Virus record (IMG/VR): IMGVR_UViG_2880395615_000009
Location: 1-46,666 of that record
DNA: 46,666 nucleotides
Direction: 5' to 3' (one strand)
Origin: a virus
Lineage: Duplodnaviria > Heunggongvirae > Uroviricota > Caudoviricetes
Within the stretch, counting starts at the first letter, position 1; every line of letters starts with the position of its first letter. Below the pieces are notes generated by a model, which did not search any database, was not told where the DNA came from, and saw only the letters and a list, made by a program, of their open reading frames with translations. Shown here piece after piece: positions 41,845-42,277 of the stretch. Made by a program: the position numbers and the translations under genes.

Positions 41845-41905
41845 TGTTGATTACCTTTTGGCGGGTATCCGTTTTTTGTTTTCCCTTGTGATACCCGCCC
41901 TTTTT
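41845..41905 (+). ncRNA. dicF: DicF-like small RNA (divergent 5-prime region) ending in a rho-independent terminator
   Basis: Located immediately upstream of dicB; 10-bp perfect stem GGCGGGTATC/GATACCCGCC followed by CTTTTT; 5-prime boundary inferred. Confidence 0.5.
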
Positions 41906-42088
41906 AAAGTGAATTTTGTGATGCGGTGAATGCGGCTCAGCGCACGCGGAACAGTTAAAAAGGCCAGTTGACTTCCGTATTGGTTCTTATGGGTGGGTTC
42001 TCTGTATCCGGCGTTAATTGTTAACTGGTTAACGTCACCTGGAGGCACCAGGCACCGCATCACAAAATTCATTGTTGAGGACGCGATA

Positions 42089-42277
42089 ATGGAAACGTTA
42101 TTACCAAACGTTAATACGTCTGAAGGTTGCTTTGAAATTGGTGTCAAAATCAGTAACCCTGTATTTACTGAAGATGCCATTAATAAGAGAAAACACGAAC
42201 GGGAGCTATTAAATCAAATATGCATTGTTTCAATGCTGGCCCGTTTACGTCTGATGCAAAAAGGATGCTGGCAGTGA
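42089..42277 (+). CDS. dicB: Cell division inhibitor DicB
   Basis: METLLPNVNTSEGCFEIGVKISNPVFTEDAINKRKHERELLNQICIVSMLARLRLMQKGCWQ closely matches E. coli DicB as remembered; SD GAGGA upstream. Confidence 0.8.
   Translation: METLLPNVNTSEGCFEIGVKISNPVFTEDAINKRKHERELLNQICIVSMLARLRLMQKGCWQ

What the first reader, a model, noticed from the sequence alone, without database searches (positions are those of the whole stretch)
41845..42277. DicF-like sRNA with a divergent 5-prime region upstream of an intact dicB
dicB is clearly present (62 aa, near-identical to DicB as remembered). Directly upstream is a terminator-ended element at the position of dicF, with a perfect 10-bp GGCGGGTATC/GATACCCGCC stem and T-run, but its 5-prime part differs from the K-12 DicF sequence I recall. 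A changed seed could alter the target set; DicF is known to target ftsZ and other mRNAs, and EHEC strains are reported to carry several dicF copies.
Basis: partly seen in the sequence, partly recalled or inferred. Interest (0 to 1): 0.6.

Follow-up and report, generated by a model that had tools for sequence, protein, structure and literature searches.

The report
Non-canonical dicF allele upstream of dicB
At the spot where E. coli prophages normally carry the cell-division-blocking small RNA DicF, this prophage carries an unannotated replacement cassette that keeps the terminator hairpin but has lost both DicF target-pairing regions. It is therefore a relative of DicF and of the Rac sRNA KilS, not DicF itself.

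Summary
A perfect 10-bp hairpin (41860-41869 / 41890-41899, 20-nt loop, CUUUUU tail to 41905) lies 184 nt upstream of an intact dicB (42089-42277, 56/62 aa identical to K-12 DicB).

The window matches an O55:H7 lambdoid prophage at 100% identity. About 200 nt on each side of the element are nearly identical to the K-12 Qin dicBF operon. The ~65-nt cassette itself is only 35-60% identical to K-12 dicF.

The Rfam DicF model does not hit it even at E<=10; K-12 dicF scores 76.7 bits as a control. DicF's 5' seed is deleted. Complementarity to the ftsZ start region is at chance (z -0.4, against -2.9 for K-12 DicF).

The locus is polymorphic. At least six hairpin types combine with three 5' types between invariant flanks. 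One allele is the validated Rac sRNA KilS. A model built only from other alleles finds this element as the only significant hit in the window (26.8 bits, E about 6e-5).

Most likely it is an intrinsic terminator/attenuator ahead of dicB whose released RNA is not a functional DicF. Whether it has its own targets is unknown. It occurs in about 3-4% of complete E. coli genomes and is never annotated. Verdict: new variant of a known kind, moderate interest.

The parts
41640..41835 (+). Conserved non-coding leader upstream of the cassette. It is homologous to the 5' part of the 190-nt DicF precursor of Qin and contains a long imperfect stem at about 41642-41725, the predicted RNase III substrate.
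   Evidence: It is about 95% identical to K-12 Qin and near 100% between allele-group consensus sequences. The long stem is predicted in both the window and K-12. RNase III makes the 5' end of the 190-nt DicF species in K-12 (PMC10448788).
41836..41859 (+). Variable 5' half of the cassette ('B type'): ...AACAACCCAUGUUGAUUACCUUUU. It lacks the DicF 5' segment UUUCUGGUGACG.
   Evidence: Shown by the alignments. The same 5' half is combined with a different hairpin in the B3 alleles.
41860..41905 (+). Intrinsic-terminator-type hairpin: stem 41860-41869 / 41890-41899 (10 bp, perfect), 20-nt U-rich loop 41870-41889, then C plus a U5 tract at 41900-41905.
   Evidence: Sequence read, inverted repeat, fold. 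The hairpin forms on its own within the 266-nt precursor fold. Model R1, built from non-B alleles, hits 41844-41905 at 26.8 bits, E 6.4e-5.
41898..42121 (+). Structured leader between the cassette and dicB. It is closed by a 19-bp perfect inverted repeat (41910-41928 / 42053-42071) that ends just before the dicB ribosome-binding site. It gives a sub-threshold STnc100-like match.
   Evidence: It scores 34.0 bits against RF02076, gathering score 47. The same is seen in Qin and in the Rac kilR leader. The inverted repeat is reported.
42089..42277 (+). dicB, the cell-division inhibitor (62 aa), intact.
42274..42477 (+). DUF1482 gene (ydfD-like), overlapping the dicB stop codon; part of the same operon.

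Best explanation
The element at 41845-41905 is one allele, here called B2, of a polymorphic terminator-plus-sRNA cassette. Lambdoid prophages of Escherichia and Shigella carry this cassette in the early-left (immunity-adjacent) transcript, just ahead of a division-inhibitor gene (dicB or kil). DicF of Qin and KilS of Rac are other alleles of the same cassette.

Proposed mechanism:
- Transcription starts at the repressor-controlled promoter downstream of the cI-like gene (inferred by analogy with dicBp of Qin).
- It runs through the conserved leader. The hairpin plus U-tract then terminates part of the transcripts, limiting dicB expression (inferred from the anatomy).
- The terminated RNA is probably trimmed as in Qin. 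RNase III would cut in the conserved long stem to give an RNA of about 180 nt. A further 5' cut may give about 50-60 nt (inferred).
- The product has the terminator hairpin and U-tail typical of Hfq-binding sRNAs.
- It has lost both DicF pairing modules: the 5' segment is deleted, and the loop and 3' arm are replaced.

It should therefore not repress ftsZ or xylR as DicF does. Any trans-acting targets are different and currently unknown.
For: - Flanks are near-identical to Qin while the cassette is 35-60% identical.
- Discrete alleles recombine 5' halves and hairpins between invariant flanks. The combinations are A1, A4, A5, B2, B3 and C6.
- The same cassette and downstream leader precede kil in phage Evi, in Stx phage 75/02 and in Rac.
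- Rac KilS (b4833) ends at the homologous terminator. It is a Northern- and RIL-seq-supported Hfq sRNA (PMC8175672).
- DicF-model scores are graded: A1 72-77 bits, A4 43.5, KilS 39.1, B3 34-39, B2 none.
- Model R1, built without any B allele, finds 41844-41905 as the only significant hit in 46.7 kb.
- The hairpin is strongly stable and forms within the precursor context.
- Among B2 copies the stem arms and the 5' tail are nearly invariant while the loop is polymorphic. About 94% of sampled B2 copies keep an intact stem.
- ftsZ complementarity is lost: -26.6 kcal/mol, z -0.4, 173/500 shuffles as good. K-12 DicF gives -38.5, z -2.9, 4/500.
- In co-folding, B alleles keep the hairpin closed and do not touch the ftsZ RBS.
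Against: - No expression, termination or Hfq-binding data exist for this allele.
- The 20-nt loop is large for an efficient terminator.
- The simple terminator scan did not call the 10-bp stem, because its loop limit is 3-8 nt. It reported only a 5-bp sub-hairpin.
- A 171-aa gene on the opposite strand (41025-41540) lies between the presumed promoter and the element. Read-through from that promoter is therefore assumed, not shown.
- The loop drifts among B2 copies and the 5' tail may be cut off by processing, so there is no clearly conserved seed.
- Some related copies carry stem mismatches or a hairpin deletion, as expected if constraint is weak.
- The IMG/VR samples were retrieved with exact-match flanks, so allele frequencies and conservation estimates are biased.
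Confidence: 0.6

Rival explanations
1. It is a detoxified remnant. The cassette is a decayed dicF whose only remaining role is as an intrinsic terminator/attenuator in front of dicB, and the released RNA is an inert by-product with no trans targets.
For: - DicF is toxic when expressed (PMC5069750), so loss of its seeds could be favoured.
- The 5' seed is removed by what looks like a simple ~10-12-nt deletion between T-runs.
- The loop varies among B2 copies by T-run slippage and point changes.
- The perfect stem could have arisen mutationally, by templated correction of an imperfect palindrome, rather than by selection. This last point is inference.
Against: - KilS shows that non-DicF alleles at this position can be Hfq-associated sRNAs with their own partner, yncL.
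- The 5' tail GUUGAUUACCUUUU is as conserved as the flanks and is shared by two hairpin types.
- The alleles are discrete, with intact hairpins, rather than a smear of decay.
Confidence: 0.3
2. This is the first reader's reading: a DicF-like sRNA that still acts as a DicF-type regulator (ftsZ and related targets), with a modified seed that shifts the target set.
For: - It occupies the same position and processing context, and shares the terminator base and U-tail.
- A 9-bp pairing, including two G-U pairs, forms between the 5' tail UUGAUUACC and ftsZ codons 11-14 in co-folding (ddG -9.2 kcal/mol).
Against: - There is no DicF covariance-model hit even at E<=10.
- ftsZ TIR complementarity is at chance.
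- The 9-bp ftsZ pairing lies about 33-41 nt downstream of the start codon, outside the ribosome-binding region. By my own rough estimate (about 0.1), such a helix is not rarer than chance. Shuffled RNAs usually bound ftsZ more strongly.
- The xylR-pairing 5' end of DicF (PMC5069750) is deleted.
Confidence: 0.07
3. It is a chance hairpin or a protein-coding feature. Candidates are the 51-aa ORF 41774-41929 (+) and the 109-aa ORF 41851-42180 (-), both of which span the element.
For: Both ORFs exist mechanically. Some phage records annotate small hypothetical ORFs in this region.
Against: - Cassette alleles differ in length by amounts not divisible by three (68, 75, 63, 73 and 56 nt between the same anchors). 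No reading frame is therefore preserved.
- The hairpin has z = -5.5.
- The element is recovered by an independent RNA model.
- RefSeq annotates no CDS here.
Confidence: 0.02

Closest known systems
DicF sRNA of the Qin cryptic prophage (Rfam RF00039; E. coli K-12 b1574)
   Same: - It has the same genomic slot in a dicBF-type operon, with DUF1391/ydfA upstream and dicB and DUF1482/ydfD downstream.
- The upstream leader with the RNase III stem and the downstream leader are about 95-100% identical.
- It shares the hairpin base GGCGG...CCGCC, the CUUUUU tail, and the loop remnants GUUUU and (in some B2 copies) CCGUGA.
   Different: - The 5' segment UUUCUGGUGACG is absent.
- The loop (20 nt, U-rich) and the whole 3' arm are different, and the stem is a perfect 10 bp rather than an interrupted 7+4 bp.
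- There is no RF00039 hit.
- Complementarity to the ftsZ start region is no better than chance.
KilS sRNA of the Rac cryptic prophage (b4833; Bar et al. 2021, PMC8175672)
   Same: - It is a terminator-ended RNA at the homologous position, directly upstream of the same STnc100-like leader and a division-inhibitor gene.
- It has the same GGCGG...CCGCCCUUUUU terminator base.
- It shows that non-DicF alleles of this cassette can be real Hfq-associated sRNAs.
   Different: - KilS is 98 nt, with an unrelated 5' part and reportedly its own promoter.
- Its upper stem (CAUCAG/CUGAUG) resembles the B3 and A4 alleles, not B2.
- Its downstream gene is kilR, not dicB.
- It still scores 39.1 bits with the DicF model, whereas B2 scores nothing.
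'B3' allele of the same cassette (for example STEC316, L126; IMG/VR L049)
   Same: The 5' half (CAACCCAUGUUGAUUACCUUUU) and both flanks are identical, and it also lies upstream of dicB.
   Different: The hairpin is GGCGGCAUCAG...CUGAUGUCCGCC, which is KilS/A4-like. It gives sub-threshold DicF-model scores of 34-39 bits.
STnc100 / PasD family of prophage sRNAs (RF02076; Zhu, Shabalina & Storz 2026 preprint)
   Same: The structured leader immediately downstream of the element (41898-42121) gives a weak STnc100-like match. A full STnc100 copy lies elsewhere in the window.
   Different: This concerns the neighbouring leader, not the hairpin element. Its score of 34 bits is below the gathering score of 47. 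The Pas sRNAs sit in other prophage modules (Q/lysis or structural genes), and the preprint does not mention dicF or dicB.

Membership tests
DicF (Rfam RF00039) | Covariance-model score at or above the gathering score of 48 bits | tested here: not met
   There was no hit at gathering threshold over the whole window and none at E<=10 on 41600-42300. The positive control, K-12 dicF, scored 76.7 bits. Other B2 copies (L124, L125) also gave no hit at E<=0.1.
DicF (Rfam RF00039) | Location inside a dicBF-type operon, between the conserved leader and dicB | tested here: met
   Both flanks align to Qin at about 95% or better. The gene order is DUF1391 ... element ... dicB, then DUF1482.
DicF (Rfam RF00039) | Rho-independent terminator hairpin followed by a U-tract that forms the 3' end | tested here: met
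   The element has a 10-bp perfect stem plus CUUUUU, at -18.5 kcal/mol and z -5.5. Termination activity itself was not measured.
DicF (Rfam RF00039) | Extended antisense complementarity of the 3' region to the ftsZ ribosome-binding site and start region | tested here: not met
   Duplex energy against ftsZ -40..+30 was -26.6 kcal/mol, z -0.37, with 173/500 shuffles as good. K-12 DicF gave -38.5, z -2.92, 4/500. The anti-RBS motif CUCCG is absent from the loop.
DicF (Rfam RF00039) | 5' single-stranded segment UUUCUGGUGAC, used for xylR pairing | tested here: not met
   The segment is missing from the alignment. Its role is taken from PMC5069750.
DicF (Rfam RF00039) | [quoted passage not shown] | not testable with these tools
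   Only the conserved long stem and the terminator/U-tail anatomy can be shown. The processing scheme comes from PMC10448788.
Broader DicF/KilS-type terminator cassette (my own grouping; model R1) | Significant match to a covariance model built from non-B alleles (DicF variants, A4, A5, KilS, Stx phage 75/02) | tested here: met
   The window 41844-41905 scored 26.8 bits, E 6.4e-5, and was the only hit below E 0.5 in 46.7 kb. E-values from the short calibration are rough, and much of the score comes from the invariant terminator base.
KilS (Rac, b4833) | 98-nt RNA from the kilR 5' UTR with the KilS 5' sequence | tested here: not met
   The upstream region of the window is Qin-type, not Rac-type, and there is no similarity to the KilS 5' part. 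The downstream gene is dicB.
STnc100 (RF02076), considered only for the adjacent leader 41898-42121 | Score at or above the gathering score of 47 bits | tested here: not met
   The leader scored 34.0 bits. The true STnc100 copy in the window, at 31339-31505, scores 99.6 bits.

The most novel reading that the evidence does not exclude
The dicF slot may be a seed-swapping sRNA locus. Conserved flanks would act as recombination arms that let lambdoid prophages exchange short terminator-sRNA cassettes (DicF, KilS, B2, B3, A4, A5, C6), each with its own host regulon.

On this reading, B2 is an undescribed Hfq-dependent sRNA with targets other than ftsZ. It would be expressed alongside the other dicB-leader loci of the same O55:H7 genome, so that one cell carries sibling RNAs with different specificities.
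Probability: 0.3. Interest if true: 0.6.

Novelty: new variant of a known kind. Interest (0 to 1): 0.4.

Why it matters
DicF is a textbook prophage sRNA, and work on it has counted only near-identical or Rfam-detectable copies. This locus shows that the same slot holds several discrete alleles that homology searches and genome annotation miss.

- About 3-4% of complete E. coli genomes carry the B2 or B3 type, and none of those copies is annotated.
- These alleles lack DicF's pairing regions.
- The data also link DicF and KilS as alleles of one cassette.

If B2 is active, pathogenic lineages such as O55:H7, O121 and many STEC and ETEC strains carry an extra prophage regulator with unknown targets. 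If it is only a terminator, it is an example of a toxic sRNA being disarmed while its role in gating dicB is kept.

Either way, counts of 'dicF copies' based on the Rfam model or on BLAST at >99% identity under-report the locus. A dicB gene cannot be taken to imply a functional DicF next to it.

Tried and rejected
- **Pas sRNAs (PasA-D).** I checked the 2026 Storz-lab preprint. Those genes lie near Q/lysis or structural genes, and the paper never mentions dicF or dicB, so they are not this element.
- **Targets inside the window.** The reverse complement of the 5' tail gave only chance-level matches. The reverse complement of the loop gave one 1-mismatch match at 15537-15550, which lies inside a coding region and not at a start site. 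I rejected both.
- **ftsZ pairing via the 5' tail.** A 9-bp helix with two G-U pairs forms at ftsZ +33..+41. I judged it chance-level and badly placed for translational control.
- **Small ORFs across the element.** I rejected these because allele lengths break any reading frame.
- **Bidirectional terminator for the opposite-strand gene.** There is no T-run on the minus strand after the hairpin (read).
- **Literal sequence search of the literature.** A search for the stem sequence returned only unrelated papers.
- **Papers that could not be opened.** Melson & Kendall 2019, Faubladier & Bouche 1994 and Murashko & Lin-Chao 2017 are not held. From memory only, the 1994 paper reported dicF-like sequences in other prophages, including Rac, that lack division-inhibiting activity. 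If so, the general idea of non-inhibitory dicF relatives is old.
- **Genome-wide target prediction.** This was not possible because no whole-genome 5' UTR set can be loaded.
- **DicB loci in other species.** The search for related loci in one-genome-per-species contigs gave only 7 loci (Escherichia, Shigella and one probably mis-binned MAG), so it added little allele diversity.
- **Deposited phage genomes.** They hold the region only at 80-84% overall identity, and I saw no B2-type copy.

Full report
**What is there**

The window is 100% identical over this region to a lambdoid prophage of E. coli O55:H7 (RM12579, CB9615, DEC5A/D). RefSeq annotates the following genes, in window coordinates:
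- a Cro/CI regulator on the minus strand;
- a LexA-family cI-like repressor (39776-40492, +);
- a DUF1391/ydfA-like gene (40758-40910, +);
- a hypothetical 171-aa gene on the minus strand (41025-41540);
- dicB (42089-42277, +);
- a DUF1482 gene, an exonuclease, an excisionase and an integrase.

Nothing is annotated between 41541 and 42088. Read directly, that gap contains GGCGGGTATC (41860-41869), a 20-nt U-rich loop, GATACCCGCC (41890-41899) and CTTTTT (41900-41905). The inverted repeat is perfect. The 61-nt RNA 41845-41905 folds to -18.5 kcal/mol, z = -5.5. The hairpin also forms on its own when the 266-nt upstream context is included. dicB is intact: 56/62 aa identical to K-12 DicB and a full-length Pfam DicB match at 131.5 bits.

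**Relation to dicF**

I aligned the window with the K-12 Qin dicBF operon. About 200 nt upstream and about 190 nt downstream of the element are roughly 95% identical between the two. The ~65-70 nt that correspond to dicF are not.

Consensus sequences built from 139 distinct copies make the boundary sharp. Identity between the K-12-type and window-type consensus is about 1.0 per 20-column block on both sides. It falls to 0.35-0.61 inside the cassette.

Relative to K-12 DicF, the window allele differs as follows:
- It lacks the 5' segment UUUCUGGUGACG.
- It has a different loop.
- It has a completely different 3' arm, now perfectly complementary to a 5' arm that is almost the K-12 one plus one G.
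- It shares only the stem base GGCGG/CCGCC, the CUUUUU tail and short loop remnants.

**Family test**

The Rfam DicF model (RF00039) gives no hit in the window at the gathering threshold. It also gives none at E<=10 when only 701 bases are searched. The same model scores K-12 dicF at 76.7 bits.

**A polymorphic cassette**

I scanned IMG/VR with exact flanking anchors and a variable gap, and added E. coli, E. albertii and phage loci. This recovered discrete alleles. The labels below are mine.

| Allele | 5' half | Hairpin | Example |
|---|---|---|---|
| A1 | DicF | K-12 DicF | K-12 Qin |
| A4 | DicF | GGCGGCAUCUG...CUGAUGUCCGCC | L008, E. albertii L211 |
| A5 | shortened DicF | minimal GGCGGA...UCCGCC | L108, L214 |
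| B2 | B type | window type, several loop sub-variants | this window |
| B3 | B type (as B2) | GGCGGCAUCAG...CUGAUGUCCGCC | L049, L126 |
| C6 | a third 5' half | a further hairpin | Stx phage 75/02, upstream of kil |

5' halves and hairpins occur in different combinations between invariant flanks. That pattern is the signature of modular exchange.

DicF-model scores fall in steps: A1 72-77 bits, A4 43.5, B3 34-39, and B2 and A5 none. B2 is therefore linked to DicF through intermediates: B2 to B3 by the 5' half, B3 to A4 by the hairpin, and A4 to A1 by the 5' half.

A covariance model built only from non-B alleles (R1) finds 41844-41905 as the single significant hit in the whole window (26.8 bits, E about 6e-5). 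The caveat is that the short calibration makes the E-value rough, and the invariant terminator base contributes much of the score.

**KilS**

In K-12 Rac, the annotated sRNA KilS (b4833, 98 nt) ends exactly at the homologous terminator GGCGGCAUCAG...CUGAUGUCCGCCCUUUUU. That terminator sits upstream of the same downstream leader and of kilR. KilS scores 39.1 bits with the DicF model.

Bar et al. 2021 predicted KilS from Hfq RIL-seq data and report verifying it by Northern blot. They list yncL as its RIL-seq partner. That paper does not mention DicF. So at least two alleles of this cassette are experimentally supported sRNAs with different partners.

**Function of the window allele**

In K-12, the 3' part of DicF pairs with the ftsZ ribosome-binding region and the 5' end pairs with xylR (PMC5069750).

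The 5' module is absent here. For the 3' module I computed duplex energies against ftsZ -40..+30, with 500 dinucleotide shuffles of each sRNA as controls:

| RNA | Energy (kcal/mol) | z | Shuffles as good |
|---|---|---|---|
| K-12 DicF | -38.5 | -2.9 | 4/500 |
| Window B2 | -26.6 | -0.4 | 173/500 |

Two other B alleles were also at chance. In co-folding, K-12 DicF opens its hairpin and covers ftsZ from -29 to +26. The B alleles keep the hairpin closed and touch only codons 11-14 through a 9-bp helix with two G-U pairs. I regard that helix as chance.

The element is therefore predicted not to act as DicF. What remains common to all alleles is the hairpin plus U-tract. Among B2 copies the stem arms and the 5' tail are nearly invariant, while the loop varies by T-run length and point changes. 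About 94% of sampled B2 copies have an intact stem. A few related copies carry stem mismatches or a hairpin deletion.

**Processing context**

In Qin, DicF is cut out of the polycistronic transcript that starts at dicBp. RNase III gives a 190-nt species and RNase E gives the 53-nt form. Both terminated and read-through transcripts exist (PMC10448788).

The window keeps the corresponding leader, including a long imperfect stem at about 41642-41725 that is predicted in both sequences. I infer an RNA of about 180 nt ending at 41905. A shorter form is possible, but its 5' end cannot be predicted. No sigma-70-like promoter was found on the plus strand between 40400 and 42700.

Downstream, a 19-bp perfect inverted repeat (41910-41928 / 42053-42071) encloses a structured leader that ends just before the dicB ribosome-binding site. 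This leader matches STnc100 weakly (34 bits, below the gathering score) in the window, Qin and Rac alike.

**Distribution and prior knowledge**

An 80-nt B2-specific query matches 204 of 5,426 complete E. coli genomes. In 163 of them the match covers at least 80% of the query. In the 40 records listed, no feature is annotated under the match. Carriers include O55:H7, O121, and many STEC and ETEC isolates.

The wider 601-nt region is present in 4,728 genomes, at a median of 2 places per genome. The five O55:H7 genomes and one unserotyped isolate with 100% matches have 3-5 such places, but B2 was seen only once in the one checked. I did not determine which alleles occupy the other places.

Deposited phage genomes hold the region only at 80-84% overall identity, and the copies I inspected are A1 or C6.

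Published surveys of dicF used copies more than 99% identical (PMC5069750) or Rfam hits (EDL933 DicF_1-4, PMC5331693). Reviews speak of four dicF copies in EHEC (PMC7873438). I found no description of the B-type alleles in the searchable literature. Three relevant papers could not be opened. From memory only, Faubladier & Bouche 1994 already reported dicF-like prophage sequences without division-inhibiting activity.

**Verdict**

The feature is real. It is a positional and evolutionary relative of dicF, but it is not DicF by model score, by seed content or by ftsZ complementarity.

The best reading (confidence about 0.6) is a non-canonical allele of a swappable terminator/sRNA cassette. It gates dicB expression and releases an Hfq-type RNA with unknown, non-DicF specificity. 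The main rival (about 0.3) is that it is only a terminator left after a toxic sRNA was disarmed.

It is a new variant of a known kind and of moderate interest.

Noticed in passing
window 41898-42121; L002 2933-3142; L220 4223-4409 (-): The leader between the cassette and the division-inhibitor gene is highly conserved in Qin, Rac, this prophage and several phages. It gives a consistent sub-threshold STnc100 (RF02076) match of 28-38 bits. It is closed by a 19-bp perfect inverted repeat (41910-41928 / 42053-42071) next to the dicB RBS. This may be an RNase III site or a translational gate for dicB/kil.
   Followed up: partly
L220 4406-4503 (-) = NC_000913.3 1418405-1418502: The Rac sRNA KilS ends at a terminator homologous to that of DicF (39.1 bits with RF00039) and occupies the same slot upstream of kilR. 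The paper that named KilS does not mention DicF, so the DicF-KilS relationship may not be generally recognised.
   Followed up: partly
window 41025-41540 (-): A 171-aa hypothetical gene on the opposite strand replaces ydfB/ydfC of Qin, between the DUF1391 gene and the leader. It has a coiled-coil-like N-terminal half and a C-terminal CxxC...CxxC motif. It gave no Pfam family above cut-off and no PADLOC match. It looks like a moron insertion, and early-left transcription would run antisense through it.
   Followed up: partly
window 31339-31505 (-) and 35126-35301 (-): A full-length STnc100 sRNA (99.6 bits) and a sok antitoxin RNA of a hok/sok module (121.7 bits) lie elsewhere in the same prophage window.
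   Followed up: no
window 41899-41907 and 41955-41963: The U-tract of the terminator (CCTTTTTAA) is complementary to TTAAAAAGG, which lies in a 14-nt insertion present in the window's leader but absent from K-12. In read-through transcripts this could pair with the U-tract. Its significance is unknown.
   Followed up: no
L159 63-132 (-), L177 4492-4561 (-) (IMG/VR): Two B-type copies have lost the 5' arm of the hairpin (TTGATTACCTTTTCATTGCTGGCTGATGTCCGTCC). Ten B3 copies carry a CCGTCC mismatch in the stem base. The cassette therefore does decay in some prophages.
   Followed up: no
L218 (phage Evi) and L219 (Shigella Stx phage 75/02): The same cassette and leader architecture precedes a kil gene instead of dicB. 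In 75/02 the cassette is a further allele: ATCAATATCCTCTTTGGCGGACATCGG...CTGATGTCCGCC.
   Followed up: partly
L212 (contig JAGZPX010000007.1) and hit H93 (PP818812.1): A canonical dicF-dicB locus sits on a contig binned as a Veillonella parvula MAG, which is probably mis-binned E. coli prophage DNA. An Actinobacillus pleuropneumoniae phage record matches the leader at 87.5% identity. Both hosts are unexpected.
   Followed up: no
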